Below, piece by piece: positions 3,602-60,025 of a DNA stretch of 64,000 nucleotides. This DNA is from Carcharhinus longimanus (Eukaryota). How positions within the stretch are numbered: the stretch's first letter is position 1; each line of letters begins with the position of its first letter. The notes beneath the pieces are model-generated. The model ran no database searches and was not told the origin of the DNA. It worked only from the letters and a program-made list of their open reading frames with translations. The stretch covers positions 76,732,760-76,796,759 of the forward strand of contig JASCQW010000061.1 in the NCBI GenBank assembly GCA_030264375.1, written 5' to 3'. The position numbers were made by a program, and so were the translations under genes.

Positions 3602-4774
3602 TGAACGGAACCCTCGGACAGGCCTCACAGGCAAATGCTGCCGCTGCTTTTTTTTTTTAAAAGCTAGTTATTTATGGTATGTGGACAGTGCTGTTTAGAC
3701 CAGTGATTCTCAACTGTGCCTAACAGCCCCCAAGTGTGCTGAGCAAAAAGATTCCAAATTATTTAAAATTTGCATAAATAAACTAAAACTAACCATCGTC
3801 TTCAGCATTGTGGTTGGCATCTCCAAGACCTGACAAATCTTGGGTCACTTGGGCATGCGCCGGCTGGGAAAGAGGTCTTGGGTTCTATGAAATTGCTGAT
3901 CAATTCCTAGTAGTCTCCCACTTCCGCACTGATAAAACCTGCTACTGGGTTCAGGTGCCTTTTGAGCTCTAAAATCTTTGTAACCCTGTTCTGACTCTCC
4001 TTTTCAGTTTTATCCATCTCATTAAAGTTTAATTTCTGTTCCTACCATTAAAAGGATGCAGCAAACATTTATATAGTGCCTTTAACACGGTAATAATATT
4101 TGACGCTATCACATAAGGAAACACTAGAACACATGCTCCACAGCTTGTGTCAAAAAAGTACATTTTAAAGAGCATCTTAAAAAGAGAAGTAACGGGAAAC
4201 AGATTGTTTATGGCCCACAAAGCTGAAACTAAGATCATAACGATGGAGTGATGAAAACTGGGAATGCACAATAGACCAGAACTGGAAAATGTTGAGAAAT
4301 TGGGAGGGACATATAGCTCAAGAAGATTACAGAAGAGAGGGATCTGACTGCAAGTATGAGAATTTTAAATTTTAGGCCTTGTCCAGCTGGGATTCAATAC
4401 GGGCACTTTTATGGGAGGATGGGTAAATGGGGCTTGATGGGTGTAGGTACAAGAAGCAGACATTTCAATGAGCTCAGGTTTACAAAGGGTGCAAGGTAAC
4501 CATGTGAACACAGGAATGCTCTGCGCACAAATCCAATTCTGCACATGATGCTATGCAAATAGCTCATCCAAAGTTGGGTCTTGAGCCTTAGTTAAATGAG
4601 ACTGGGAGGTTGCACACTATCCCTATACGTCTCAGGTACCTATGGAAGCAGATGCAAACTTTTGGTCACTGCTGGCTGTGACCTATGGTTGGGTCCTGAG
4701 AAAGTTGAAGGTGAGTATTTCCAAATATTATAATAGAAAATTCAATAAGTTAACAAATTAAGACACAGCAGATT

Positions 4775-6021
4775 GTTGGTGCCTTTACCACTTTTATTTC
4801 ACCATGAAGAAACATACATTCAACATTTATTACATTGCAGCAAAAAATTTAATGAAAGTATTGTACCCTACAGTTAGCTGTGTGGTCTTCTGTAAATCAT
4901 AAATGCTTCACGATTTGAAAGCTTTCAATGGAGTTTGCGATTATTTTCTGTTTAGTTTAAGGCTTTGCTCTGAATCTGGAGTCTACGCAGAGTGTTTACA
5001 AAGAATCAATGCTGTCATAGTCAATGTNNNNNNNNNNNNNNNCACAGGTAGTAAACAGAGAAAGTCCTTCTAGAGCAGACACATTCACTTGCAACATAAA
5101 CCGAGCAAAACAGACTCGGTTTAAAAAGGAATACTGACATCTCCTCTAAGGGAAGTCAACATCTACAACTACTGATGGATTACTCTACCTGGCCTTTTGG
5201 TTCTAACTTAAAAAGAATGTGCTCATCTAACAAAACCAAATCATTCAAGTAAAATATATATTTTTATATATATATATACTTCTTTAAAAAAATGTTAGGT
5301 GACATCAAATTATGCTGACAAAGCACAAGATGCAGCAAAACAAGTTGTTCTAATCTGTGTAAGGTTATTCATGTTTTCACAGGCATTACCATTGTATATC
5401 AAGGTTTCCAGTTATAAGCTTCAAGTTGCTTAGTATGATAATAGATATGGACTTGCACTGCCATTGGCACATCTACTGTAAGGTATGACATAATCCCTCA
5501 ATACAATTAACACTTTTCACCAGCTTTGGGGTGAAAGTTATTTGCTTATAAATGAAACCAAGTACAATTAAAATGACTTACTGCCAACTTATTTATCTTA
5601 ATATCAGCTATAGTAATTTTTTTAAACTGTCAGAGGATTTTCCTGTTTCTTTTAAAACATTAATGTTTCAATGTATCTTTTGCTGTTTAAAACTGCTGAT
5701 AAAATGATAACTTAAGAGATGTGAACGCCTTACTATATACGGATTTGGAAAACGCTTTTCTCATTATTTCTTTTTTGTGACAAAGGTTTATTCTAATCAT
5801 GCATTATTCATCTGCCATTTGGATATGCTGGAATGAGGTTTTTGCCAATGTTCTTATTTAGTGAGAGGGTCCTTGTACAACGTGCTCCAGTATGCTTGGT
5901 GTGAAAGGTCATTAGTGGATGGATTCAGGACAAATGAAGTCATGTATATGACTCCATCTAGACTCCAAAATCATTCCTAATGATGTGTATGCATTACTTC
6001 TTTGTGAAGACGTGGTTACTC
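4775..6021 (-). other. EPB41L3: EPB41L3 non-coding terminal exon (3' UTR)
   Basis: Strong acceptor tttcattttccttcccag|GAGTAACC at 6021. Repeat-free AT-rich sequence ending in clustered polyA signals. The 3' end is approximate. Confidence 0.75.
4793..4853 (-). terminator. Polyadenylation signal cluster
   Basis: Minus-strand ATTAAA (4848-4853), AATAAA (4826-4831, overlapping TGTA) and AATAAA (4793-4798), with GT/T-rich sequence downstream. Confidence 0.7.
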
Positions 6022-14910: not shown

Positions 14911-15039
14911 CTTTGCTGATTCATAGGTGATTGTTTTAGTCTCGGTGTGAACGACAGGTACATCCTTTGTGCAGATTTCCTTTCCATCCTCCTGACACAC
15001 ACTGCCAAAGCTGACCGTTTCAGTTTTCACAACAGGTGG
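14911..15039 (-). CDS. EPB41L3: EPB41L3 exon (PPVVKTETVSFGSV...TKDVPVVHTETKTITYESAK)
   Basis: Boundaries cttttag| and AAG|GTAACA. 129 nt. Carries the 4.1 family motif VPVVHTETKTITYES. Confidence 0.96.
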
Positions 15040-16425: not shown

Positions 16426-17769
16426 ATTATATTTATTCACTATTTGTGCAGTCATATCCTTATTTTTGCTACTAATATTCTTTTGATGGCAATGTGATCT
16501 TAGAGCTACATTAATAGTAGAAAGTCAGTTGGAACTGTAGACACATACCACTTAATGGAACATAGTCTCATGGCTAAAGAGGAAAGGAAAGCCAGAGGGA
16601 GTACTTTTAGTGTAATTATCAAAATATCACACACCTATCTTCTGTCTTTCAGCAGACATTGTCATTTCTCATGGGGATCTGACATTTAGGACTGATTCAC
16701 ACTCAGCCCAGTTATAATAATGTTGGTTATAGTGCTGTGTGCGTCCCAGAAGAAGACCAATTTGGTAGCTGGAATAGCAATGAATCAGCAGCATACTCAG
16801 ATGTGAGACCTAATGAGCTGGACTGGGAATATACCATCTTACTACATTGTGTGTCTATGAATTATTAATAGTCAAACATACAATCTACTCTGCAAATCAT
16901 CTGGATAATCAGCTTGGCACTTGTTTTAAACGCACTACTTTTATTTTTAGTGCAACTGAGTTCTATAATTCATCCAAACCCATTTACACAAAATGGGAAA
17001 AGAATTATCTGGGCATTAAAGTAAGAGAAAACTAAAAGTCTGTACTGCAAACAAAAGAGAGGCCCCTGCCTTCTTATTTAACTTGACTTTGAAATATTGA
17101 GGCTGGAATATTCAGAAATAAAGTTCAACTTCTGCTGTAAGGACAACACAAACTTCTGGCCTTTTAGAGAAAAATAGTCTGCGTTCAGTTTGTCAAAACT
17201 GAGAAAGTATCTTGGGCAGATTGTATATTCTCGAATCATTTTGTTGCTTTACATCTGTATGATTATAAATTTGATCTGTTTTTGATTACTTCACAGCATA
17301 TACTGAATGTTGATGAAAAAATTGCCAAAAATGAAGTTAGACTTTCAATTACCTTCACAATTAATTTTAAGCACATTGATTCATCAGACTGTTGAGAATT
17401 TTAAATTAAATTGCTTAATGCCCTCTTTAAAACACCAGGATAAGAGTAAGACACTAATCTTCACAACATGGGAATGTGAAACCTAGAGCTGTATTTTATC
17501 TCCCTTGGTAGTGTCCATTCGGAAAGTCAGTAGATTGCCAAATCCTGCCCTAACCTATCAATGACATGGAATAGTACATATAATGGCCAATGAGTACCTG
17601 CCCTGTGGGGATGTGACCTATAACTTTGTGAGATGGTGGGCAGCGAGCTGAGTTGGCTAATGCAGGAAAAATATTCAAGCACTGAGACAGGGAGGTGGGA
17701 CGGGGGGTATTATTATCAATCTGCTTGACTGTTCTTTTAGTTGGAAGGCATTCAGGGCCTTTCTTATGG

Positions 17770-18223
17770 AAACAAGGATGTTGCCTGGATTGGGAGGCAT
17801 GCCTTATGAAGATAGGTTGAGGGAGCTAGGTCTCTTGTCCCTGGAGAGATGAAGGTTGAGAGGCGACCTGATAGAGGTTTGTAAAATGTTGAGAGGAATA
17901 GATCGGGTGGATTCTCGGAGGCTATTTCTCAGGGCTGAAATGGTCGCTACGAGAGGACACAGGTTTAAGGTGCTGGGGAGCAGGTGCAGAGATGTCAGGT
18001 GTAAGTTTTTCACTCAGAGGGTGGTGAGTGAGTGGAATCGGCTGCCGTCGGTGGTGGTAGAGGCAAACTCGCTGTGGTCTTTTAACAGACTTCTTGATGA
18101 GTACATGGGATTTAATGGGATTGGGAGTTATAGATAGTTCTATGGCCTGATAGGTATGGATATGTTCGGTGCAACTTGTGGGCCGAAGGGCCTGTTTGTG
18201 CTGTAGTGTTCTATGTTCTATGA
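17770..18223 (+). mobile_element. CR1/HER1-like LINE, 3' end
   Basis: ORF2 C-terminal translation MLPGLGGMPYEDRLRELGL...RGDLIEVCKMLRGIDRVD...TRGHRFKV with an in-frame stop, and a (ttctatg)n tail. Confidence 0.88.
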
Positions 18224-18420
18224 TTCAGGGAAGGAATTCTGGAGTTTAGAGCATAGGCACCTAAAGGCATGATGAAGCAGTGATTTGATTTGATTGATCA
18301 CAATAAATGAAAATCAGTAAGAGGCCAGAATTGAAGGAGCCCAGAAATATCAAAGGCAGTAAAGTTGGTGAAAGTTACAAAGGGGAAGGAGAGGATGGAG
18401 AGATTTGAAAGAAAAAGCTG

Positions 18421-18842
18421 TGGGGAGGTGACGGTCTAGTGGTACTATCACTGAACTACTAATCCAGAAACCCAACTACTATTTGGGGGACCCAGGTTTG
18501 AATACCATCATGGCAGATGGTGGAATTTGAATTCAATGAAAAATATCAAGAATGAAGAATGGCCTGATGAAGGTTCAATGCTCCGAAAGCTCGTGATTTC
18601 AAATAAACCTGTTGGACTTTAACCAATTTACAGTGTCTACCCTGTCCAACACTGACATCTCCACATGATGTTGAACCCATCTGGTTCACTAATGTCCTTT
18701 TGAGAAGGAAATGTGTCATCCTTCTGTGGTCTGGCCTACATGTGAATCCAAAGCCACAGCAACTACCCTCAGGCAACTAGGGATGGGCAATAAGTGCTGG
18801 CCAACCAGCCACATCCATGTCCCACACATGAATTAAAAAAAA
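18421..18842 (+). mobile_element. tRNA-derived SINE (SacSINE1/DeuSINE-like), interrupted by an insert at ~18560-18668
   Basis: Head ggggaggtgacggtctagtggt...ccaggtttgaataccatc, and tail gggatgggcaataagtgctggcc...gaattaaaaaaaaa. Related copies at 29138, 37135 and 62738. The family name is tentative. Confidence 0.7.
18560..18668 (+). mobile_element. Short Penelope-like-derived repeat carrying a hammerhead-ribozyme-like core
   Basis: CTGATGA (18564-18570)...GAAA (18585-18588)gcTC, then aaataaacctgttggact. A second copy lies at 26095. Confidence 0.65.
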
Positions 18843-19731
18843 ATGTGATGTTAAATTTGGGGTATTAGGTACAGAGCCAATATAGATTAATGAATGTGAT
18901 AGCGGATGAACAAAAATTTGAGTGAGTCAGGATAAGTAACCAAACTACAAGAAGGATTAAAGTTCTAAGTAGCCTTACAGTTCAGCAACAGCTAGCTATC
19001 ATTCAAAGAGAACCTGAGTATGTTTCCCACTGCTAGCACTTGTGAAGTTTAACATTGTTCAATGCGGAAAACAAGTGACAGCAACATCTAACTACCTTTT
19101 GTATCATTATCCCAGATTACCACATTTCAAATAATAGGCTTCGTAAGCTCTCCAGCTCTATCATTAGACTTTTAAGCCATTGTTCAATAAGGACAACTAA
19201 GAGCTAGTTCATGGATAATGATACTGATTGGTCCCATTTTCTGTTGGCTGAAATGAATCCTCTGGTGATGAGTAGTGCTCAGGAGCTGAATAGGAGTTGT
19301 TGCATTGTCAGGCAGGGTTAAGCAGTTGGTCAATTTGACAGCTGCAATTCATCCAGCCCTGTATCACAGGACAGTGGAGCAAAGGCTCCATCAAAAACTG
19401 GCATCAACCTGCACTAATTATATGGAAAAAGCAAAAACAGTGATCATCTCTAAGAAAGGCTTAAAAAAAATCGGTCTTGCATGGTTTTGCAGTTTAAGTG
19501 GATATAACAATATATTCTGCTGTAATGTGCCTTTAAGAGATAGCAGCATGACATCACTAAAAGGGAAATGTGTCATGTGATCCAGTCTTAGTTTCACTTT
19601 TGATTTGAGTGGAGCACAAATGCACACAGCTCTGACGTCTTCCAGCTTTATACTAATGTATAACTGTCCTCATATGCCCAGTCTTAATGAAGGAAAACAC
19701 AACCTGTCTACCCCATCCATTTTAAGGCATA

Positions 19732-20035
19732 GAATAAGACCATAATATATAGGAGCAGAATTAGGCCATTTGGTCCATCAAATCTGCTCCGCCATTCAAA
19801 CATGGCTGATAAGTTTCTCAACTTCATTCTCCTCCCTTTCCCCCATAATCTTTGATCCCCTTACCAATTAAGAGCCTATCTATCTCTGTCTTAAATATAT
19901 TCAATGACCCGGCCCCCACAGTCTTCTGTGGCAATGAGTTCTATAGATTCACCATCCTCTGGCTGAAGAAATTCACCTAATCTTGGTTCTAAAAGGTTGT
20001 CCCCCTATTTTGAGGCTGTGCCCTCAGATCCTAGT
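19732..20035 (-). mobile_element. CR1-like LINE 3' fragment
   Basis: cataatatataggagcagaattaggccatttgg... tail, followed by antisense ORF2 C-terminal sequence. Confidence 0.75.
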
Positions 20036-23244: not shown

Positions 23245-23471
23245 TGGTTTGTAAATAACAAGGACAATAAACATCAGCCTTGCATTAAGTGTGCTTCAAA
23301 ATAACTTGACTCAATAGAAATTAATGATAGTCAATCTTTTTGCAGTTCATGCAAGTCAGCTGCTCTGCTGTCTTTTTTCCCATAGGTTTTTGCAAATGTA
23401 CAAAGAAACAAATAGATTAAATGAGAATGATTAATGGTGACAGTTGGTAAGAGGTGAGGGAAACCAGTTAC

Positions 23472-23888
23472 CTCAAACTGAGGTTTGTCTTCAGATTTAT
23501 CTGAAGGCTTGCCTATCATTTCACGCTGTTTCTCCCACCCTTGAACAGAAGCAGATACTTCTGCAACTTCAGTTACTGCATTATCCACTTTGGGACTCGC
23601 CATCTCCCTCTTGTCCTCTTTGGTTTCCACGGTCGTCAGGCAACTCAGACCCACTGCATCACCAGATGAGTGAGCTTTGCTCGCCTCTGCTATAGTATCC
23701 CACTCAACTCCTGCCAGCTTAGCACATAGAGCGGAAGCATCCTCGCTTGCATGCACATTCATCACATGCTCCTCTTCCATCACCATTGTTTCCTGTATAA
23801 CCTTCGTCGTCTTCTCCTGTTCATGGGTTTCATGTTGCACTACTTTGGAGCTTACTTCCAAGTTCATTTCAGATTTCATTTCAGATTT
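23472..23888 (-). CDS. EPB41L3: EPB41L3 large U3 exon (KSEMKSEM...KVIQETMVMEEEHVMNVHASEDAS...KPQFE)
   Basis: Acceptor T10-gtccctag|, donor GAG|GTAACT. 417 nt. Matches human KVVQETVLVEE..VHASGDAS and KPHFE. Confidence 0.92.
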
Positions 23889-26094
23889 CTAGGGACAAAA
23901 AAAAACCTCTGCTATGACAATACGTCGTAAAATGTAATTATTTCACTATAGCAACCAGTAAAGGATTTACAATTGAGGCACAAAAGTCTCAATTTTCTTA
24001 AATCCCTATTTGACCCAACTATACATTCATTAAAATTGAACTTAAAAAAATACTTTATCCAGGACACCCAAATAATCAGCAGACCCAAGTATTGTAAAGC
24101 CTTAAAATCTCACAGCTTAGTGAGTATAATGCATATTCTGTGTAGGAAGCATACATTGATTTTGTAAAAAAGGTTTTCATCACAGTGCTCCATCTAAAGC
24201 ATGCTTTCCGTGCAGAATGCATACAAAAGAAATTTTAATGTAAAAATAAAAATGCACAGATAATTTGAGCTTTCTCCTATTATTTTCCTTCTTTTGTCAG
24301 CATATTGAAACTGCTCCATTGTAGAATTTTTCACTCAGTTTGTAGGCACGTATTATAAAATCTCTCGCCAGCAACAATCATGAAATTGGCATAGTTTTCA
24401 AAGCAGACATTGATTTAAAGAATGCAACATTTCTGCAGTCACAGAACAGATTCTGAATCTGTGGTAAGGAATGGAAATCAGCATCAGCATCACAATTCTT
24501 GAAAATGATCTCTGAAAAAAATTTTCAGAGCCACAATGCACATACTGGTAAGTTTTTTTTGGAATGAGATAAAGTAGAGAAAGCACAATGCTCTGTAACT
24601 TTAAATCAAAAATAAAAAACTAAATGGCAGAAGCTACATACAGTCAAATACTCTGATATGCAACCCACCAACTCGAATAGTTTTGTCATCTGCACTTTGG
24701 CTGTTGTTAAGTCTTTACTGCAAATCCTGCTGCCTTACTGATCAAGCATGTCAAGTTCATAACAGAAATATTCAGAACCAGTTCTATTATGTACTTGAAA
24801 TTTTACTTATCTTTGTGGTTATAGATTTTGACAAATTCCAAAGTTTAAGTAATGTGGAGAATATAGGAAGATACTGTGGCAAAGTGGAGTTTCCTTTTTG
24901 GAACCTGCTCTTCCATGAAACAAACCCAAATCGAAGCATACATTACCATCCTTAATACCACTAAAATTCAACAATTAGGCTGCTTTCTAAAAAACAAATC
25001 AGACTGGATTTCAATAAATTCAAAAATGGTCAAAAGAAAATGAACAGAAATGCGAAGTTGATGACCATGCCATCATGCATTTCAGAAACAGAAGGAATGA
25101 CCTATCAAAATTATACACACATGCACTGAAATGATAGGCCCAAGAGTTATTGTAGAATCATAGCCTGTCAAGTTTATGCCAGTTCAGTGCAAGAGCAACT
25201 CTGCTGGTCTCACTTCCTTGTCCTTTCCTTATAGTCCTGCACATGCATTCCAGTTTCCTTTTGAAAGGGACAATTGAATGTGCCTCCACCATCCTCTCGA
25301 GCAGATCATAACCACTTTCTGCATAAAAAGGTTCTTCCTCATGTTATTTCTTTTGCCAATCTCCTTTAATCAGTGTCCTCTGCTTTCCTCAGAGCTGCTT
25401 GTGTCATTATCTTTGTTTGAAGTGCAGCAAGGATCTCATTGCCTCATGCAAACAACATTTCTCTGACACTTCTGGCAAATTTCTGGTGACAAGCAGGAGC
25501 AACTCCAAGGAAACTCTCAGCATAAAATCATAAGGAATTTAAAACATGTACTTGTCTGCATTTCCCATCTCTGCACCACAGTGACGCATTATTAACCTGT
25601 GTACAAAGTGCTATTGTGGACAATACATTGTGAGGAAACATCCTTACTGTGCACCTTCTCTGTTAAAAAAAAATCTTCTAGCAAAACAGAGAATAAAATG
25701 TCTAAAAAAATCGAAGATTACCAACATAAAACAATTGCCAGTACAACGGTCTAAATGGTATATTTATTGCAAAAACATGCCATTTAACATTCAAGAAGCC
25801 ATCTTAAAGCAGAAAATGCAATCCGACAAGATCAAGTGGCTGCAATTGTACGTTGTCACAATCCCACAATGTACTACTTACAGCTTCCGACACAGACACA
25901 AATGCAATTGGTAAAGCAATGTGCCTCAGATAATTTCACATTGGATGACTAAGGTGGTAGCTGGAACCATCATTCAAATGAAAGGTGCATTACTTTTAAA
26001 TCTTACAATGGAAATACTTTATAAACACAGAAGATTGTTTCTTAAACTTACTGGAGTGAAGATAAATTGATTGTGACAAATTAAACATGAAACA

Positions 26095-26220
26095 CTTCAC
26101 CTGACGAAGGAGTAGCGCTCCAAAAGCTTCTGATTTCAAATAAACCTACTGGACTATAAGCTGGTGTCCTGTGACCTCTCATCTTGTCCACCCCAGTCCA
26201 AAACCAGCACCTCCAAATTA
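26095..26220 (+). mobile_element. Second copy of the Penelope-like/hammerhead-core short repeat
   Basis: tcacCTGACGAaggagtagcgctccAAAAgcttctgatttcaaataaacctactggact...cagtccaaaaccagcacctcca. Confidence 0.65.
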
Positions 26221-26830
26221 AACATGACAGCTCTGTAGCTTCAGAACAGACTTACTACAATTCAAGCACTTGATCACTGGTTCACTGTGAGGAAGCACCA
26301 AGTGGAGGCCGGAATATTCCCTACACAGACGGAAATTTGAGGGTCAATCATTCCCAGGTCAGTGTTGCAAACATCCTGGCCCTGGCTGCAGCTTTGAAAG
26401 TGACATCTGTAGGGGCCTGGTGAAAGTAGTTCTTAAGAGTAGTTAAGTTTGCCAAAGCCTCCAGGATTAAACTTAATTTCCAGGAATCAAAGAATAACCC
26501 ATCTCAAGCAACTCCGAAGAAAAAAAAAATCAAAAGGGACCATTAGAAAAAGGTGATTTTTGTTTTAAATGAACCCTTCTGTTTATTTGTTATTAAAAAA
26601 ATTTGAACATGGGAAAGAAGGCAGATTGACTGACAAATCACCCAACTGGGGAATCATTGATATACGGAGGCAGTGCACCATGTGGGTGGGGAAGTTGTAG
26701 GTTGAAGGATTAAAACCTCCAAGGGTATGTCCAACCAGAGCTAGAAACTCAAAGGATAGATGATGTAAAGCATGAACAGAAGTTAAATAAAATAAAATGG
26801 TGTTCACACAAAAAAGGATAGTCCTCTCAA

Positions 26831-27343: not shown

Positions 27344-27856
27344 CTGTGTAGACACAGAAAGTCAACATATAAAAGCTAACTGACATACATGATTACGTAA
27401 ACAGCAGACAGATAAAAGTCTATTCAGATATAAAAGGTTGAAGAAGTTAGGAGAGATTAATTAGGATGTATGGAAAAAGCAAAAGGAGGGAATAAGTGTA
27501 GAGAAACATACAAAGGATAACAGGTTAAAGCTGAGGAACATCATATTTCAGAGGCTTTGCTCGATTGAAAAGATGTGCAACATAATCGTGAATAAAGTTA
27601 GAAGGTGATGGGGCAATCTGCTGAAATGCAATGAGGTGCAGCCTGAATAAGCTTAAAATTTTAAGGGAACAATGCCTAATTTAACCAAACGATGATGTCA
27701 AAAATAAAATGGCAAAACTATCCTAGAGGACCACTGGCTGGGTGCAAGCAAATAGCAGGTAAGCGTAATCGCGGCTTTAGCTGTGTAAGCATACCAAAGC
27801 CATGTTGTCTGAAAGTCATGCGGATCTTTAGATTGAGTGGTGGGGGCAACAGTTAC

Positions 27857-28099
27857 CAATAATCTTGATCCCGTTGACTCAGTAAAGTAGTGTGCTGTAG
27901 CAATAGTAAACATTGGCTCTTCACCAGTCTTCCATTTGGTCATTGAGGTCTCATACTTCTGCAGTGGGGTTGGGCCCATATAAGAGCTTTCAATTCCTCC
28001 TGCAGTCTCTTTAGCTGTCAGGCTACCTTCAGTTTCACCTCTTTTTGTTTCCCCCTTCTTTGAAATGACAGTTGCTTCCAATGTAGACAGCACAATTTT
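27857..28099 (-). CDS. EPB41L3: EPB41L3 U3-region exon (KIVLSTLE...EEPMFTIATAHYFTESTGSRLL)
   Basis: Acceptor aaacag|, donor TTG|GTAACT. 243 nt, open, phase 0/0. FTIATAHYxTES resembles long vertebrate 4.1B isoforms as recalled. The 5' boundary is less certain because of an in-frame CAG giving a start at 27958. Confidence 0.72.
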
Positions 28100-28696
28100 C
28101 TGTTTGATAATTTGACAGATGACAAAATCTACCAATCGTTGATCAGATCAATACATTTCATCTTCAACTTTACTTTCTCCACTGACTGCTGTCAAGCATT
28201 GCATTATAATGTTAGCATTTCTTTTCTATTGTTGCCTATATTGAAGTTCCTTTCTCACCATTCCCCTCCCCCTTTCCCTCCCTCCATCCATATTGTTTTT
28301 GAAATTTGTGGTCTATAACTTTTTCAGAATGGCAATCTCCAGTGGATTGCAACTCTGGATGGACTTAATTATATTGAAATTGCACAGCTCGTCTCGCCCA
28401 ACCTTCCTCACTCAGGCTAGGTGAGAAAGGAGTAGTGGAGCACGCCCCCGGCTGCATCATCACAGTGTTAACTGGGGAATATAGAAGGAAGGCGTGCTCC
28501 CTTTTGACGACATAGGGACAATTTAAAGGGAGAAGGTAGCTGGTGGTTCAGACATTGACGGGGAAGACATGGTTTTTGGAAGGGGCAGGGTTAGGTTTTG
28601 GATTGGGTGGAGATGTGGGCTTGATTGGGATGAAGGGTTGAGGGTTCCTGGGTGTGGTCATGGGTGGTGTGCAGAATCCCCTGAGGGATGGGGGAA

Positions 28697-29137: not shown

Positions 29138-29492
29138 CTTTTTTTTATTCATTCATGTGATATGGGCATCACTGGCTGGCCAGCATTTATCGCCCATCCC
29201 TCGTGGCCCTTGGAGGATGGTTCAACCACATTGCTGTGGCTCTGGAGTCAAGAATAGGCCAGACCAGGAAAGGATGGCAGATTTCCTTCCCTCAAAGGAT
29301 ATTAGTGAACTAGATGGGTTTTTTCCTGAGAATGGTTTCATGTCATCAGTAGATTCTTAATTCCAGATTTATTTTTACTGAATTCAAATTCCACCATCTG
29401 CCGTGGTTGGATTTGAACCCAGGTCCCCAGAGCATTAGCTGAGTTTCTGGATTAACAATCTCGCGATAGTACCACTGGGCCATCACCTCTCC
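29138..29492 (-). mobile_element. SacSINE1/DeuSINE-like SINE, full length
   Basis: Reverse-complement similarity to 18421-18842, without the insert. Confidence 0.75.
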
Positions 29493-29524
29493 ATAAGTAT
29501 GGAAGGAGAGATCTTGGTGAATTC

Positions 29525-35830: not shown

Positions 35831-37134
35831 CAACGGCTACTTTCACAAAGAACAAACATTCAAATAAAATGGAAGGCAGGCAAAAAAAACTGTCCACATC
35901 TCAAATATGATTTTCATCAGAATTTTTTCACAAAAGTTCTGTTACTATACAATATTTCAGCAGTAGCTTTTGGATATATATCTAAAATCAAGTCACTGCC
36001 ATTTTAATTAGGTTGCTGAGCTATGTTATTTGTGAAAACAAGTGGGCTATTAACATGTATAGCTATTAAATATAAAATTAGAAATTTAATGTTACCTCAT
36101 AGAAAGATTAATTTCTGTCTATGCAAATTAGCAGAGGATCAGAGAAACTGGAAAGATCTAGCGATAGATCCAAATGATACAGATGGGCCATTTTCAGAAC
36201 GGGCTTAGGGAGTTGTGGCTTTTTACTCAAAACTGTAGAATTTGAGGGGTAAGCTTGGATATAGTGAACAGCTTTACTTCCACTCAAGTGGTAGGTTATC
36301 TAAGCGAGCTAGAGAGTGTGGAGATTGAGGGAGGGCAGTGGTACTAGTTAAGAAAGCATAGAAAATGCCAGAAAATCCTCTCAACAGGTTGGCAGAGCAA
36401 GCAATTAGTTTGGCTTCATTTTGGACCTTCAAAAGGGAGCTGGATGAGTTCTTCTGACTGAAAGATATCTTAAGTTATAGGTGGTGTGTGGGTCAACTGG
36501 CACAAGTGAATCGGATCATTGTAGTCTCCTAGAATTTGCTCATATCATCTTCTGGGCTTTGTTTTCTTCTTAAAGTAACCAAAATAACTGCTAGAATGGT
36601 TTTGGTAAGTGAAGAAGTCTTTGTAGTCATATGTTAACTATAAATCTTCATTGGCTCTTAGAACTATTTACACGCATACAGTAAAGGGTATGAGCTGTCA
36701 CTATGCTTGCTGGTACACGCAACTCTGTCCTAACTCAACTAGCCCTGGGGGCAAGTCAAGTGCTCGCTTACATCACTGTGTGGGTAGCACTGTACTCAGT
36801 CCCACATTAACCCTGTCATGTGCCAGACTTTATACTATAGGAATGCTGTAATATGTTTTTTCTCCCCCCTCCTTATGATTGCGTGGCAGGAAAGAAAGCA
36901 GGGAATGGGACTACTAATACATCCTACATGCACTAAATCATTCACAAGGACCAAATGGTTTCCCAACTGGTGATCCTGTGTCTCATTTTGTATGTTTCTG
37001 CATTTAGATGAAATGTTCACTACGTTCATATTAAATTTCTCTGTCCACTATTTTAATGGGATCATGAATGCATTATTTTAAATAGATTCATGGCTACATT
37101 AAAATAATGCATAGATATATGATATAATAATTTT

Positions 37135-37530
37135 TAAAAATTCATTTGTGGGATTTGGGCATCACTAGCTGGCCAGCATTTATTGCCCATCCATAGCTGC
37201 CCTTGAAAGTTGATGGTGAGCTGCCTTCTTGAAGTGCTGCCATTTCAGAGGGCAGTTGAGAGTCAACCACATTGCTGACACATGTAGGCCAGACCACAGA
37301 AGGATGGCAGACTTTCTTCCTGAAAGGACATAAGCAAACTAGATGTTGTTTTCCAACAATCAACGATGGTTTCATGGTCATCAGCAGATTCTTAATTCCA
37401 GATTTTTTAAAAATCAAATTGAAGCTCCACCAGCTGCTGTGGCAGGCTTCGAACTCAGGTCCCCAGAAGATTAGCTGACTTTCTGGATTAATAGTCCAGC
37501 AATATTATCATTAAGCTATCACCACCCCTC
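37135..37530 (-). mobile_element. SacSINE1/DeuSINE-like SINE
   Basis: Colinear with 29138-29492. Confidence 0.75.
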
Positions 37531-37699
37531 ACAAAAATCAACAACATTATTTTCCAGGCATAGGTTTCAAGCTCTGTATCTTGATTTGGTCATTTTTCGT
37601 TTCAATATCATTATTGTCCCTGAAAACAATATGACTTTAAGAAAAAGGACTTAAGGCAGATTACAAATTCACTGGATTAACTGGATCCTCATAGAATTC

Positions 37700-38901: not shown

Positions 38902-39203
38902 CTGCTAATAATGTTGAAATAATTCAGGAACAAGTATGTAAAATGATTTTACAAACTGGGTGATATTAGAAACTTTAAGATAAAGCATGATTACAATGTT
39001 AGTAACATGGAAAGCATACAGTTGTACAAATTCTCTATGCCTTACTTTATATATTATTTATCTCAGTGTTTTATGATCCATTGCATTAGCTTATAACATA
39101 TACAATTTTAGTGCTTAAAAATGGACAAATTATGTACAGGTGTTGACATTATTTCAGATACGCATATTTGTGAGTTTAGCAGTAATGCTGCAACAAAAAT
39201 TAC

Positions 39204-39392
39204 CTCCTCAGGCATAAGGGGCTCAATCATAGGCAAGTCCTCCGTCTTTGAAAAGGTTCTAACTGGAGAGGCAGATAATCTCTTTTCCCATTCGTCAGGT
39301 CCACTTTCAGATGTAGATTCCAGGAATGTTCGTTTCATCTCATTTATGTTGGCATGGTGCTTAACCACCTCTTCCTGAGTTTTATCAAAGTC
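39204..39392 (-). CDS. EPB41L3: EPB41L3 SAB domain exon (DFDKTQEEVVKHHANINEMKRTFLE...EWEKRLSASPVR...PMIEPLMPEE)
   Basis: 189 nt, AG|...|GTAATT. Strong similarity to the 4.1 family SAB core. Confidence 0.95.
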
Positions 39393-40444
39393 CTTTCCAT
39401 TAACAAACAAAAAAACCAAAGGCAAATAATTTTAGCACGTCACCTTAATACAACTAGATTTCAAACTATTACTGCTCTTCACTTCCTCACTTTGGAAATA
39501 TGAAATGTATATGTCATTTCACCTGACTAGCTCTGTCCCATAATTCTGCATTTTTCATTTACGATTGACACTTGAAAAATTGATATGATTGCCCTTATAA
39601 AAGAAAAATCTCTGATTGGTGTTCATAGTTTCTTGAGGAAAAGTTCACAAAGCTGCAATACTTTAAAAGTAACATAATTTTGAAGTTATGGACAGAATAC
39701 TGCCCTCCCACCCCACAAAGAAAAGTCACCTCAGAATTTAGCAATTCAACTATTTTAATGATTCAGTTGCTAAGCTATGTATATGAGCCAAACAAATTAT
39801 TCAATCCTGTGCTGTTTTAGCTGAGGTTCATGTCAAGATTGCCGCAATTTAGGTCAGCTCCCTTGCATTGTGGTAGCAGGTGGAGGATTATATTTGGGGC
39901 CAGGGGTCCGCTTTCAATCACTGCAAGTGCAAAACTGGACATCAGGTGAGATCTGAATGGGCCTGAGCTTGTTGTCTGTGACCCAATAGCTCGCCTACAC
40001 TGATATGGAGAATGAGAGTAGAGGATTACTGGTGCACATGAAACTACAGCCCAGAAAGGAGTCAAGAACTTTCACAACAGGAGGCCAATGAATGGAAAAA
40101 AAACAAAAACTTTGTAATTAATTTGACCAAATATTATACCAATTTAAACAGCTTATGCTTCATAGCACCACAAAATAGTTTTTATAATATGTTAACTGGC
40201 ACACTCCTCCGGTTTAAAAGTAATGACTTTCACACAAATGTTGCTGAGTAAACATGCAACACCATTAATTATTTCAATAACTACATGATATCAATATCAA
40301 AATAAATGCATTTCTTTTCATTTGGAACACATGATACTTCATGGTCTGGCTATCTCCTGGCAGTTTGGTTTGATCATTTCAAATAGCATCAGTCTCCTTC
40401 ACAGCCAAAGCCTTTCTCTACTGCAGCATCATTCCTGAAGGTAA

Positions 40445-48332: not shown

Positions 48333-51272
48333 GGTCTGCTTGCAGCATTTATATGAAAAAAATTAGACTCATGGTCAAGCTGCCCAATAGTCTGAATACC
48401 TTAATTTACAATTAGACTGTACTGGTCTCAGCAAGTTTTTTTTTTAAAAAGGACTTTTTACTACACTTCTGACAAGATTTTTTGCTATATCTCAACCAGG
48501 ACTAAAATGAGAACTGACATCTCTATCATCAATTATACAAATATTTCATTTGATGGACATGGACATGTGATGCTGTCATTGAAATAATTAAAGCAGTGTA
48601 ATGTATTTTCATATTTTCCTGTTATACAAAATTTTGTAATGCTTCATAGAGAAAAATTATACGAAAGTACCAAAATTGGCACTCTGAAAAATCAATACTT
48701 TTTTCCTCCATTTTCTAAACCAGTTACTCCAGGAAGGTGACTTACAAACTAATAACAAATGCCAATATTTTCTTTGTCTAATGATGCTTAATTATCAACA
48801 ATGTACACTGAAGCAACACTGGATAATTGGAATTATGGAAGAGGGATGAACGGATCAAGAACGCACCAAGATATCAGCTTTTCACTAGAAGGAAAATGTG
48901 CTTGATGTAACATTGATGGTTTATTAAAGGAGTACTGTTCCACCATTGCTGACATTGTAACACATTTGAAAACATGTTTTGAGAGACTTCAGCACAGTGA
49001 AGGAATTCTATTTGTCATCCTTTGTGTAAAGAATTCAGAAATTTGGCTTCAATGTTCATTTTAATAAATCTTCAAAACTATGGAAACAAAATTGTCATCC
49101 TATCTTCAGTGGACTACAATAGATAGCTGAAAGATTCTGCAATACCAAATCCTTTATTAAATCAAGTATGAAAATCAACTTCTGCTCAAAGATAGAGTAA
49201 ATATGCAATATAGCCCATGTTTTAAGGATTTTGAATCAAATACAAATCTGAGTTATGCTTTCCTAAATGCACAGATATATAGGTCATGATGCAAACAGAC
49301 CCTCATTCATTGAATGATCCTTTCATGCAATGTGGACCAGACAATGACCACTAGTTTAACTTCTCCATTTATTTTAAGGAACACAGAACATGCATAATAA
49401 TGTATATACACTTTACTATCAGCCGATTCTGGGTGCTCCAGAGTAGAGGTTCTCAACCAGAGGTCAATGAGAATGTTTAAAGGTCTGCCAAATCAGCGTC
49501 TTTCAAGAATAAAACCTTATCAAAATTCTATTCTGCAAAATGGGTACACAATAAAAAAGTAAAACTGATTGCTACTGATGTCAACTGGACCTCATTTATT
49601 GCTAAGAATGAGATTTTGACATTGGCTATTTTTTTAAACCCACCCTAATTCAGCTCTGGTTGGACTAATGTGGTGCTGCTGCCACCAATGACACTGGAGG
49701 AATGCAGAAGAGACCCTACTCCCTAATTTCCCCAGATCTGTTTGAGAGATTTGGCAATGGATTATTTTCCCACCATGTTGAGTGGTGCACACTCACGCGC
49801 CCACCATTTTAAAATCAGTATGCAGAGCAACAGATTAGTGAGATTTGAAACCTGTTTAGTTGTGTCATAGATAGAATTTACCAAATAATGTTGGTGACTG
49901 CTCAGCTGACTACACCTTCTAGTCTTCTTGTGGCCAACTGCTGCCTATCCATCACAGTGTTACCAAAACAAAACATGGTACCAGCAGCTGATCAAACCGC
50001 CTCTATGTTGCTGAGACTTTTAGGTCAGAGTGCAGGAACATCATTCTTAACATGCAGGCAGAAATGAAGGCAGACATTTTTTCATATTGGGAACCAAGCC
50101 TGGAGCTTAGGTAAACATGATCTATGGTAACCCATCTGATTTTCTGTTCTGGGATCTTACTGTGCACAAAATGGGGGGTGGGGGGCCTGCTGAATTTTAC
50201 CATGTGGCTGGAACCACCCAATAATAGTTGTGCTGCGCTAAAGAGGGCCTGTAGCATTTGTGTAACATAGGACGGCAGTGGGAGAATCTCAGAAACAAAA
50301 AGGTTGAGAACTCCTACTTTGGAGGATGATTTGAAATTAGACACCAAGTTTTCATTCTGAGCCTACAGTGAAGTTAACCTAGTCTATACCCCTGAATCTG
50401 TTTTAATGCCTGCAACATTATACTGTATATTCTGCCTGCTTCATTTATCCACTTCCAAAGCAGAATTTAACTGTTTATCAAAGATACGACTTTCATTTTG
50501 TACTAAAGTAAGTCAAGACAGAAAACTGAATAAGGTCATATTGAGAATAATTCATGCTGACAGCTCCCGGACCCTGTATTCACAAGGGACCATAGTAACT
50601 TCAATTTCTATATTAAACAGAAGGTCATAAGCAACAGGCAGCGTATTTCAATAGGAGTTTAGGTGTATTAGTGAGATAAAAACTGTGATTTTAAAGAAAT
50701 TGCATTGTCAAATATAAAATTATGCATTTTGGTCTTTAATAAGGTGACTAATCATGCCCTTGATGTTTGGTATTTCAACTCAGAGCCATTGAGCAGAACA
50801 AGGTTCACTGAAGAACAAATGGTCTACTGTAATACTAATGAGGTTATGGCCGTCTCATAGTGGAGAAACTAAACTGATTGACCTATCAACTGGCTCCAAC
50901 TTCTAGGGAAATGCCAGCATGGCCCATTTCAATGACCTCATTCAATTTAGGAATTTACATCTATATAAGAGCAAGAACTTTGTGCCACATGCCAATTACT
51001 TCATATTTTTCCACTATTATTACTGAACAGTTTTCATAGCTGTGAAGAATTAACCCATTTTCCAGAAACTTTTTTCCTTCTGCAAGTACAAAAACTTTTT
51101 GTCTAATCTGATGAGTCAAGTTACAGTTATGCCTCACTGAAACATAACTTTAACAACAAGAAAAAACAGCAATGAGGTTCTGAAATTAAGATTACTATTG
51201 CAGCCATTGTACATTGCGCAGGACACCCAAGCACTGAACACAAAGGACTGTGTTCTTGGCTGAGGTACACAC

Positions 51273-51848
51273 CTCTTCCTCTGAACTGTCACTCAGGTCA
51301 TTGTCAACTGAAGCACTCAAGGAGGCTGCCCTGGGCTCCAGGTAGCACAGGCATATAGCAAGAGGGAAGGAGAGAATGAGAGCCAAAGGTACAGAGAAAG
51401 AGACTGAAAGCAGGAAAAAGAAAATGAAAAGAAAACAGGGGACAAGTGATGGCGACTGAATGGGCAGATAACGTTGGAAACTCTCAGGTAAGAAACTGGC
51501 ATCAGAGAAGCTTGGGAAGGTGAGGTAGCCATCATCATCTAGCAAAGAGAATGATGCTGGGAGATGCAAGGAGAACGAAAACAACGTCCCTCCTTTCCTA
51601 GATCTAGGCCCTAGATTGTGGTCCTTTTTAAATCCCATTGCTTTCTTATCAACATAGTTGGAAGAGTCATAGTCCAATAGTGGATGAGCAGTACTTCTGG
51701 GATCTTCAGCCTTAAGACAACCAGCTGATTTTGAAACATTCTCTGTACATCTCCTATGAACGCTTGTTGATGACACAGGAGAGTCACAGTGCAAAGGCAG
51801 AGAGCAAGAGGAAGAGCTAAATGAATCTGTGGCAAAGAATGAGGAGGT
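51273..51848 (-). CDS. EPB41L3: EPB41L3 large U2 exon (576 nt)
   Basis: Acceptor ctcctctgtag| and donor GAG|GTGTGT. Encodes TLFSFSLHLP...LLDDDGYLTFP...SPSLVPCFLFIFFFLLS...CLCYLEPRAASLSASVDNDLSDSSEEE, matching 4.1B. 192 codons. Confidence 0.94.
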
Positions 51849-52334
51849 CTACAGAGGAGCAAAAAGGAAATCAGAGAAGATGAAGGAGCAACAAAAATGA
51901 GCAGGAACATTTAAAAAAGACAAACAAAAAGAAAATTATTAGTTAATGCATCCCACAGTATTTGTTCTTCCAAAATTTCAGAGCATCTGCTAACCAGAGA
52001 TATCTAGCAGCTTGGGATTCAGAAATGCTAAATTACAGGGATCCCACGACAATTTTACACAAGTATTCAAATTTCTGCAAATTGTTTAAATGCTTTTAAA
52101 AATGCTTTCTCCCATAGTATGTTATACAAATTAGCTTTGTTTACTCTGTTCATCTCAATCACTTGTTTGAATTTATTAAATATTTCTATGTAATAATTTA
52201 CCCTGTTTGTTTCCTTTGTTGTGCATTTTTCCACTTGTTTATTTCTAGCTCACATTTAATCCTGAATTTGCTAACTTGCTCTTTGATTTATATAAAAGCT
52301 AATTTTATTTTTCCAATGCCTCTTTGCACCTCAC

Positions 52335-58800: not shown

Positions 58801-59482
58801 AAAACTGACTTGAAGCTTCAGCAATAAAATATTCATCTGCTACCCAAGGAAAGATCCAAAGATTATATAGTCCTATAAGTCTTACATACATGCTTGATGA
58901 TGGAAATTACTAACAGCTATGAAAATGCAATGCCCCACAGATTGATCAAAATGTTTGCAGAAAAGTTTCAAATTTCTATTTACCCTTTTAAAGCTAAAAA
59001 CTGAACATGGCAACAAATCCTGATATTTAACATCAGCCTCAAGAAAGACATATAAACATGACAAACTCAAATTATCAGTGGAACCAAAAAAGGGATTATC
59101 AAGCCCACTCTTAGAAATACAAAGTTATAATTTTTTCCAATAATATCACATTAATATATTGTATCAACAAACCACAGACTAGAAATTAAGGCAATTGATT
59201 CTATTGAATAAATGTTTATGCTCATATCAAGTACCTCATTTCATTATTTTAATGAAAGCATCAATTAAAAATAGTGTATACCAGCATCGCTAACAATTAT
59301 TTTCACACAAATATCCTGTACTTCTAAGCAGAAACATGTTTCTTAGTTTGGAACAAACTAGTCAAACTGGTTTCAAATTAACCTATCATAATTTCTAATA
59401 ATGGCCTACTTTCCTAGGCTTTCAGACGTATCGCCTGCCTATTTTGTCAACAGTATACTTTTCTTGCCCCAGAACATACTAC

Positions 59483-59703
59483 CTTTATTTCATGCTTGGC
59501 CGGTGTGACTGATGGAGTAACATCAATCTTTGTTTTTTTCTCCTCTTCCTCTGCTTTCTCCTCTTCTGCCTTTTTCTCTGGTGTCACTGTGGTTATTAGA
59601 TTGGTTGAGGCTAGGCTCTTGGCAGCACCATAATGACCTGTAGCCACTTCAGAAGCTGAAATGGAGTCCTTTATGAGCATCTCATGGTTCTCAGTGACAG
59701 ATG
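59483..59703 (-). CDS. EPB41L3: EPB41L3 exon, start of the U2 region
   Basis: Acceptor ttttaaag| and donor AAG|GTAGTA. Translates (A)SVTENHEMLIKDSISASEVATGHYGAAKSLASTNLITTVTPEKKAEEE...HEIK; TNLITTVTPEKKAEEE matches 4.1B. Phase 1 in, phase 0 out. Confidence 0.93.
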
Positions 59704-60025
59704 CTTTAAAAACACAAAATACATCTTGTCAGTCAGTGTGTCCAGCTAAGCCCAGTGGACCCAGTAGCACAGAGTTCCTATGATTGGCCTAAGGGCCTCT
59801 AGACAAAGTGGGAAACCAGACATAGTTCCTTCCCAAATTTGAGTGACCCCTTTGGAAAGTACTTAATATATCTGAGCCACTTCAGTGTGATTGCTGTCTT
59901 GAAACACAGTGGTAGAGTGGCAGAAGAATTATGCACTCAATGAGCTGGTGTCTTCAGGAGATAAAGGGGTGATAAAAAGAGGTTGAAGCTGAAAGTGGAG
60001 CTCATTGAGGACTTGGATTGTGAGT

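What the first reader, a model, noticed from the sequence alone, without database searches (positions are those of the whole stretch)
18560..18668. Minimal type I hammerhead ribozyme core in a short repeat nested inside a SINE
Seen: CTGATGA-aggttcaatgctcc-GAAA-gc-TC-gtgatt, i.e. both catalytic boxes, a very short stem III containing the palindrome AGCT, and an NUH-type triplet. The segment is absent from sister SINE copies (29138, 37135), so it is an independent insertion. Established: Penelope-like retroelements carry minimal type I hammerheads, thought to work as dimers via palindromic stem III. Inference: this is a non-autonomous Penelope-derived element. This copy has a damaged stem II and lies antisense to EPB41L3, so it would not cut the pre-mRNA.
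Basis: partly seen in the sequence, partly recalled or inferred. Interest (0 to 1): 0.7.

Follow-up and report, generated by a model that had tools for sequence, protein, structure and literature searches.

The report
Broken Penelope hammerhead stub in SINE
This is the clipped, damaged end of a very common Penelope-type jumping gene that landed inside another repeat in a gene's intron; it carries the already known small "hammerhead" self-cutting RNA motif, but this copy is likely dead and faces away from the gene, so it is ordinary.

Summary
The motif is real: CTGATGA (18564-18570), extra A, GAAA, AGCT palindrome and a CUC triplet, in a ~108-bp insert that interrupts a SINE in an intron of a minus-strand protein-4.1 gene. 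It is not shown to be a non-autonomous element. It matches the short end-repeat (pLTR tip plus tail) of an RT + GIY-YIG Penelope-like element, likely Neptune clade; one locus carries the unit on both sides of the ORF. The genome holds at least 13,673 copies, 2,025 with an exact intact motif. Stem II covaries with a sister family. This copy has lost its native stem I 5' arm as well as two stem II pairs and takes hammerhead topology in 22 of 5,000 sampled folds. The host SINE has its own CTGATGA at the junction (17 of 26 copies), so that box likely served as microhomology. Side result: 23 of 86 copies begin 3-11 nt before the core, not at the cut site. The scan noted the same on other shark windows. 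Known kind; low interest.

The parts
18563..18670 (+). 5'-truncated end of a Penelope-like element (pLTR tip plus tail), with an internal loss of about 14 nt near 18625; 3' end between 18666 and 18670, at the family's likely ORF start codon
   Evidence: 18563-18624 is 84% identical (median, max 90%) to 51 family copies
18564..18570 (+). hammerhead box C3-A9; also present in register in the host SINE, so likely the microhomology of the 5' junction
   Evidence: 17 of 26 uninterrupted SINE copies
18571..18571 (+). unpaired extra A between positions 9 and 10.1, a mark of PLE minimal hammerheads
   Evidence: A in 46 of 46 descriptor hits with stems; PMC4209133
18572..18584 (+). stem II, damaged: 2 outer pairs kept, U-U and U-C mismatches, then one C-G
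   Evidence: 5 pairs in intact copies
18585..18592 (+). GAAA box, loop-less palindromic stem III (18588-18591) and CUC triplet; predicted cut 18592/18593
18593..18596 (+). 3' strand of stem I; its native 5' partner is missing (only 18563 is element-like); SINE flank 18557-18562 offers a chance helix with a G-G mismatch, pair probabilities under 0.01
18633..18670 (+). about 38-nt optional tail of the pLTR
   Evidence: present in 37 of 86 copies; 30-40 bp tail described in PMC8557442
18421..18562 (+). host SINE, part before the insertion (a SacSINE1/Deu-type SINE by recall only, not tested)
18671..18856 (+). host SINE, part after the insertion; about 16-27 nt of SINE lost at the site, no target-site duplication
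14911..15039 (-). nearest identified downstream exon of the host protein-4.1 gene (start of the 4.1 C-terminal domain)
39108..39431 (-). open frame holding the SAB-domain exon of the host gene, upstream of the insertion in gene direction
   Evidence: PF04382, E 5e-23
26096..26218 (+). second copy of the same family; G12 lost; 14-bp target-site duplication at 26077-26090 and 26214-26227

Best explanation
The segment is the 3' tip (pLTR plus tail) of an RT- and GIY-YIG-coding Penelope-like retrotransposon, inserted into a SINE in an intron, antisense to a protein-4.1 gene, and it is likely an inert relic. How it likely arose: the element's enzyme began reverse transcription at the tail end, copied about 110 nt through the uncut ribozyme and stopped; the new DNA end was likely joined to the SINE through the shared CTGATGA, which removed 16-27 nt of SINE, left no target-site duplication and dropped the 5' arm of stem I. 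Later mutations broke stem II. In the parent element the motif is a minimal type I hammerhead that would cut after CUH, likely only as a dimer through the AGCU palindrome (from the literature, not assayed here). Shown: anatomy, repeat family, link to the ORF, junctions, strand. Inferred: integration steps, Neptune clade, inactivity.
For: Upstream walk from the unit reaches GIY-YIG-type and RT motifs; L137 has the unit at 1713-1850 and 4677-4775 on one strand around ORF pieces, L139 likewise; in L128 the unit runs into an ATG and continues as ORF. RVT_1 E 1.1e-4; Atlas neighbours at 0.95-0.96 with RVT_1 on 12-15% and GIY-YIG on 11% of members. CX4CxxC linker and cysteines between the GIY and YIG motifs fit Neptune/Nematis as described in PMC8557442. 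Intact copies fold stems I and II with pair probabilities 0.86-1.0; this copy 22 of 5,000 samples, z +0.85. Between-family stem II changes G-C to A-U and A-U to G-C. N17 is G in 1 of 59 copies. A PLE inserted in another retroelement by 5' microhomology without TSD is described in PMC3846280.
Against: The RT hit is below Pfam's cut-off (22.5 vs 29.6 bits) and no Pfam GIY-YIG hit was found in 5 EN-side pieces; no intact ORF was seen; no RT tree was built. Covariation inside the main family is weak (9 of 500 shuffles reach the score), and the between-family signal rests on a hand-picked set and on a few independent events. The three letters before the box differ from the SINE majority, so the junction may instead lie 3 nt earlier with a larger deletion. 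67 of 86 copies are as short as this one, more than smooth truncation predicts. No cleavage assay.
Confidence: 0.88

Rival explanations
1. The short unit is a non-autonomous, SINE- or retrozyme-like element that copies itself from its own short RNA using the Penelope enzymes.
For: 67 of 86 copies start within 15 nt upstream of the core or further in; 23 of 86 start in a 9-nt window just before stem I, about 31 nt after a TATA-like run. Non-LTR retrozymes derived from pLTRs are reported, including in one chondrichthyan (bioRxiv 10.64898/2026.07.22.740005).
Against: 5' ends are spread over more than 400 nt; both spacer subtypes occur in short (30 and 37) and long (5 and 14) copies; short copies lack the TATA-like run; this copy is single, not a tandem array, and starts inside the ribozyme; only 2 of 51 copies that reach stem I are intact.
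Confidence: 0.08
2. The copy still works as a ribozyme on an antisense transcript, with the SINE flank supplying a replacement stem I.
For: All invariant core letters and the palindrome are intact, and flank 18557-18563 can pair 6 of 7 with 18593-18599.
Against: That fold is 2.9 kcal/mol above the minimum and appears in 22 of 5,000 samples; stem II keeps 2 contiguous pairs; even intact minimal hammerheads showed no monomer cleavage and low dimer cleavage (PMC4209133).
Confidence: 0.03
3. The hammerhead pattern is a chance product of joining the SINE's own CTGATGA to an unrelated repeat.
For: The SINE does carry that box at this place.
Against: The repeat family has the same box itself in nearly all copies, 2,025 exact intact motifs against 0 control, and 46 descriptor hits with stems against 0 in 5 shuffles.
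Confidence: 0.01

Closest known systems
Minimal hammerheads (min-HHR) in pLTRs of metazoan Penelope-like elements (Cervera and De la Pena 2014, PMC4209133; abstract, results, discussion and part of methods read, parts 1-2 of 4)
   Same: Type I, 4-bp stem I, extra nucleotide between 9 and 10.1, G10.1-C11.1, palindromic 15.2-16.2 with no loop 3, thousands of dispersed single copies tied to truncated PLEs, nearby inverted pairs; reported from fish Neptune, Poseidon and Xena elements.
   Different: Stem II is 4-5 bp here against 7-8 bp in their Schistosoma families; sharks are not named in the parts read; this copy is broken.
5'-truncated insertions of EN+ PLEs, Neptune clade (Craig et al. 2021, PMC8557442, passages read; Arkhipova et al. 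2013, PMC3846280, passages read)
   Same: C-terminal GIY-YIG, CX2-5CxxC linker, pLTRs, inverted truncated partner copies, optional 30-40 bp tail, insertion into another retroelement by 5' microhomology without TSD.
   Different: Clade assigned by motifs only; the pile-up of 5' ends at the ribozyme's edge is not in the passages read.
Non-LTR retrozymes (Li, Clavereau and Pollet 2026, bioRxiv 10.64898/2026.07.22.740005; part 1 of 5 and passages read)
   Same: Type I hammerhead, pLTR-related, short, non-coding.
   Different: Defined as tandem repeats with a complete ribozyme in each unit; this is a single truncated copy without a complete ribozyme.

Membership tests
PLE minimal type I hammerhead (family level) | CUGANGA and GAAA boxes with NUH triplet | tested here: met
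   N7 varies, N17 is G in 1 of 59
PLE minimal type I hammerhead (family level) | extra nucleotide between 9 and 10.1; G10.1-C11.1 | tested here: met
   A in 46 of 46; first pair G-C 31, G-U 15 of 46
PLE minimal type I hammerhead (family level) | palindromic, loop-less stem III | tested here: met
   GC at 15.2/16.2 in 42 of 46
PLE minimal type I hammerhead (family level) | stem II supported by compensatory change | tested here: met
   (29 double-change cells vs 11.4 shuffled, 0 of 500; hand-picked, few events); weak within the main family
PLE minimal type I hammerhead (family level) | stem I supported by compensatory change | tested here: inconclusive
   82-92% paired but almost only one-sided changes
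PLE minimal type I hammerhead (this copy) | intact stems I and II | tested here: not met
   2 and 2 contiguous pairs; 22 of 5,000 samples
PLE minimal type I hammerhead | self-cleavage as a dimer | not testable with these tools
   co-folding gave other dimers; needs an assay
EN+ Penelope-like element (parent family) | RT followed by C-terminal GIY-YIG endonuclease | tested here: met
   motifs in order in natural copies; RVT_1 below cut-off; Atlas leads; motif labels recalled
EN+ Penelope-like element (parent family) | direct pLTRs on both sides of the ORF carrying the hammerhead | tested here: met
   L137 and L139
EN+ Penelope-like element (parent family) | inverted truncated partners and optional tail | tested here: met
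   44 of 86 copies with an inverted partner, 37 of 86 with tail
Neptune clade | CX2-5CxxC linker and CCHH motif | tested here: met
   against PMC8557442; shared with Nematis
Neptune clade | RT phylogeny | not tested
   no reference RT sequences were fetched
Non-LTR retrozyme | tandem units each with a complete hammerhead | tested here: not met
   single copy; next copy is 7.5 kb away
Non-autonomous PLE derivative | own lineage with fixed ends, separate from the coding element | tested here: inconclusive
   modal but not fixed 5' end; subtypes shared with long copies; no tree built

The most novel reading that the evidence does not exclude
The family's short copies are DNA copies of the uncut front end of the element's RNA: transcription starts about 6 nt before the hammerhead core, 31 nt after a TATA-like run, and reverse transcription primed near the start codon runs off that end. 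This would place the ribozyme at the very first letters of the RNA and imply that template RNAs are mostly not cleaved. In the sister family the predicted cut site also coincides with a splice-donor-like hexamer 73 nt before an acceptor-like site, so cleavage and splicing might compete.
Probability: 0.4. Interest if true: 0.45.

Novelty: new member of a known kind. Interest (0 to 1): 0.17.

Why it matters
The copy itself does not matter: it is one of more than ten thousand decayed stubs and cannot be expected to touch the host gene. The family is a usable test bed for an open question, what PLE minimal hammerheads do in vivo, because thousands of genomic 5' ends record where template RNAs or cDNAs ended. 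The junction is also a neat example of a catalytic box doubling as the microhomology that killed the ribozyme.

Tried and rejected
Rfam scan of 17500-19800 gave no hammerhead at E up to 10; an intact sister-family copy in L153 was missed too, so the blank says nothing. Co-folding two copies gave strand-swapped or stem II duplexes, not the catalytic dimer: no verdict. No RNA holder listed on record; only guessed RNA contig sets. Contigs of four runs laid on 18230-19300 did not bridge the insertion site: presence in a relative about 4% diverged in the flank is undetermined. The splice-joint test on the pLTR was not obtained, so the intron idea is untested. Enrichment of 5' ends at the cut site: 7 in a 4-nt window against 18 in 20 neighbouring nt, p 0.11; not shown, and a few percent is not excluded. 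A chimeric SINE subfamily carrying the ribozyme was rejected (0 of 39 candidates span the insert; 0 of 26). Pfam found no family in 6 of 8 PLE-derived pieces and only weak, unrelated-looking hits in one. Lunse et al. (dimer cleavage) is not held; cited only through the review PMC6765202 (passages). Scripts had indexing errors, corrected in 69 and 80 (the L013 probabilities and identity figures of 79 are unaffected). Searches for this motif in sharks in print: 'Penelope + hammerhead + shark' 4 papers, none on it by listing, one checked by passages; 'Penelope-like + shark + Neptune' 0; 'pLTR + hammerhead + transcription start + truncated' 1 work. Supplements were not read; those of PMC4209133, PMC8557442 and the 2026 preprint may list chondrichthyan families.

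Full report
Setting. The window lies at G000:C61:76732760-76796759 of a 2.68-Gb genome. Exons of a protein-4.1 family gene are on the minus strand on both sides of the finding: a SAB-domain exon in 39108-39431 (PF04382, E 5e-23) and four 4.1 C-terminal-domain exons between about 15,040 and 8,810. The finding is therefore intronic and antisense. That the paralogue is EPB41L3 and that the host is a shark-like fish are recalled or taken from earlier scan notes, not tested.

Observation. The surrounding SINE (18421-18856) aligns to window copies at 29139-29493 and 37131-37531 on both sides of the insert but not across it. Of 40 scored genome candidates for the 340-nt junction query, only the site itself spans the insert, and 0 of 26 uninterrupted copies hold the insert's downstream part. 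So it is a one-off insertion.

Junctions. The uninterrupted SINE has CTGATGA at exactly the place where the insert begins, in 17 of 26 copies. The box is thus shared by target and element; a 7-letter match in register has a chance of about 6e-5 per junction, although the site was picked for that box. About 16-27 nt of SINE are missing and no direct repeat of 6 or more letters flanks the insert. The window's second copy (26096-26218) has a 14-bp duplication; 4 of 29 lone short copies show an exact repeat of 9 or more letters against 11 of 812 mismatched pairs. PMC3846280 (passages) describes a PLE that entered another retroelement by 5' microhomology without a duplication, so the junction type is known.

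What the repeat is. An exact 35-mer just downstream of the ribozyme occurs 13,673 times (control 0) and an exact intact ribozyme pattern 2,025 times (control 0). Walking upstream from the best hits led into a 3' UTR, then endonuclease and RT coding sequence. L137 has the unit at 1713-1850 and 4677-4775 on one strand around ORF pieces, and L139 at about 5740 and 2650. In L128 the unit runs into an ATG and on into the ORF; short copies with the tail stop at about that ATG. Natural copies read frame by frame show RT motifs, a CX4CxxC linker, cysteines between the GIY- and YIG-like motifs and the later histidines (labels recalled). Pfam gives RVT_1 at E 1.1e-4, below its cut-off, and no GIY-YIG; Atlas neighbours score 0.95-0.96 and carry RVT_1 on 12-15% or GIY-YIG on 11% of members. 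By PMC8557442 (passages) the linker marks Neptune or Nematis; the 2026 preprint found Neptune and Poseidon in vertebrates. Neptune is likely; no tree was built. No intact ORF was seen.

Ribozyme at family level. From 77 copies in loci not picked by the ribozyme, 59 with the upstream UTR were kept and 18 dropped. Variation concentrates at N7 (0.70), the stem II loop, a wobble-compatible stem II position and N17 (C 25, A 18, T 15, G 1). Fixed core letters are 0.90-1.0, no better than the flanks (which were used for picking and so are biased upward), and G12 is lost in 19 of 58 at a CpG. On 53 of these 59 (6 with large gaps left out) 85.9% of cells pair and the covariation score is reached by 9 of 500 shuffles: weak. 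A sister family keeps core, palindrome and stem I but has another stem II. On 25 hand-picked copies across subtypes (24 distinct) 92% of cells pair, with 29 double-change cells against 11.4 shuffled (0 of 500); stem II pairs 2 and 3 go G-C to A-U and A-U to G-C. These are a few events counted many times; stem I shows almost only one-sided changes. A descriptor scan of the 634 kb then held (enriched by design) gave 46 hits with both stems of 81 core matches, against 0 in 5 shuffles; the extra letter was A in 46 of 46 and the palindrome GC in 42 of 46. These are the marks listed for PLE minimal hammerheads in PMC4209133, which also reports no cleavage for a monomer and low cleavage for dimers.

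This copy. It begins one letter before the core, so the native stem I 5' arm is absent. The SINE flank could pair 6 of 7 by chance, but with stem II reduced to two contiguous pairs the hammerhead fold is 2.9 kcal/mol above the minimum and appears in 22 of 5,000 samples (z +0.85). Intact copies fold both stems with probabilities 0.86-1.0. Being antisense, it is not in the host pre-mRNA. It is likely inert.

Non-autonomous or truncated? The first 100 matches of the downstream 35-mer on contig C1 were all fetched; 14 were dropped for N at the boundary. Of 86, 67 start within 15 nt upstream of the core or further in, and 19 are longer, up to the 380-nt limit of the test. Both spacer subtypes occur in both classes; 44 of 86 have an inverted partner and 37 the tail; 2 of the 51 of 100 that reach stem I are intact. 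This fits repeated truncation of the coding element's RNA better than a separate lineage, but no tree was built. There is a real peak: 23 of 86 start 3-11 nt before the core against 20 in the 34 flanking nt (p 3e-6, window chosen after looking; about 2e-4, the floor of 5,000 simulations, after allowing for the scan under an exponential model). A TATA-like run lies 31-32 nt before the +6 position in 4 of 5 long copies printed. 13 of the 23 are in inverted pairs, so fold-back at stem I is a rival cause. Ends at the cut site are not enriched (7 against 18, p 0.11). I wrote this idea down before opening earlier scan notes, several of which report the same pattern in this and other shark-type genomes; they are not independent proof.

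Verdict. Observation confirmed; interpretation partly supported. A decayed member of a known kind. The only fresh points are the shared catalytic box at the junction and the family's 5'-end peak, already noted elsewhere in the scan. Interest 0.17.

Noticed in passing
window 26096-26218 (+): Second copy of the family, G12 lost, with a 14-bp target-site duplication (26077-26090, 26214-26227).
   Followed up: yes
L149-L173 (sister family, e.g. L153:930-1100 minus): A splice-donor-like GTGAGT starts exactly at the predicted cut site, 73 nt before a branch-point-like and AG acceptor-like site just upstream of the ATG; a 75-bp 5' UTR intron is described for Drosophila Penelope. In the main family the donor-like site is weak. 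No RNA test obtained.
   Followed up: partly
L174-L269: 5' ends of copies pile up 3-11 nt before the hammerhead core, about 31 nt after a TATA-like run.
   Followed up: yes
L002, L007, L009, L010, L014, L017, L025: Head-to-head inverted pairs centred just upstream of the ribozyme, usually with the tail on one arm only.
   Followed up: partly
window 18602-18607 and family: An AATAAA followed by a GT-rich stretch lies just after the ribozyme in nearly all copies and in the sister family; possible polyadenylation signal.
   Followed up: no
window 29349 and 37384 (minus) and SINE loci L062-L085: The host SINE itself reads CTGATGA, four letters, GAAAC; too short for stem II, probably chance, but it is the target microhomology.
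   Followed up: partly
window 17550-18224: A LINE-like 3' fragment (frame 17853-18137 resembles a CR1/L2-type ORF end by recall) lies just upstream of the SINE; 88% like L023:2614-3058.
   Followed up: no
window 51195-51910, 59447-59728, 27698-28147, 23331-23888 (minus): Long minus-strand open frames inside the protein-4.1 gene that may be large alternative exons.
   Followed up: no
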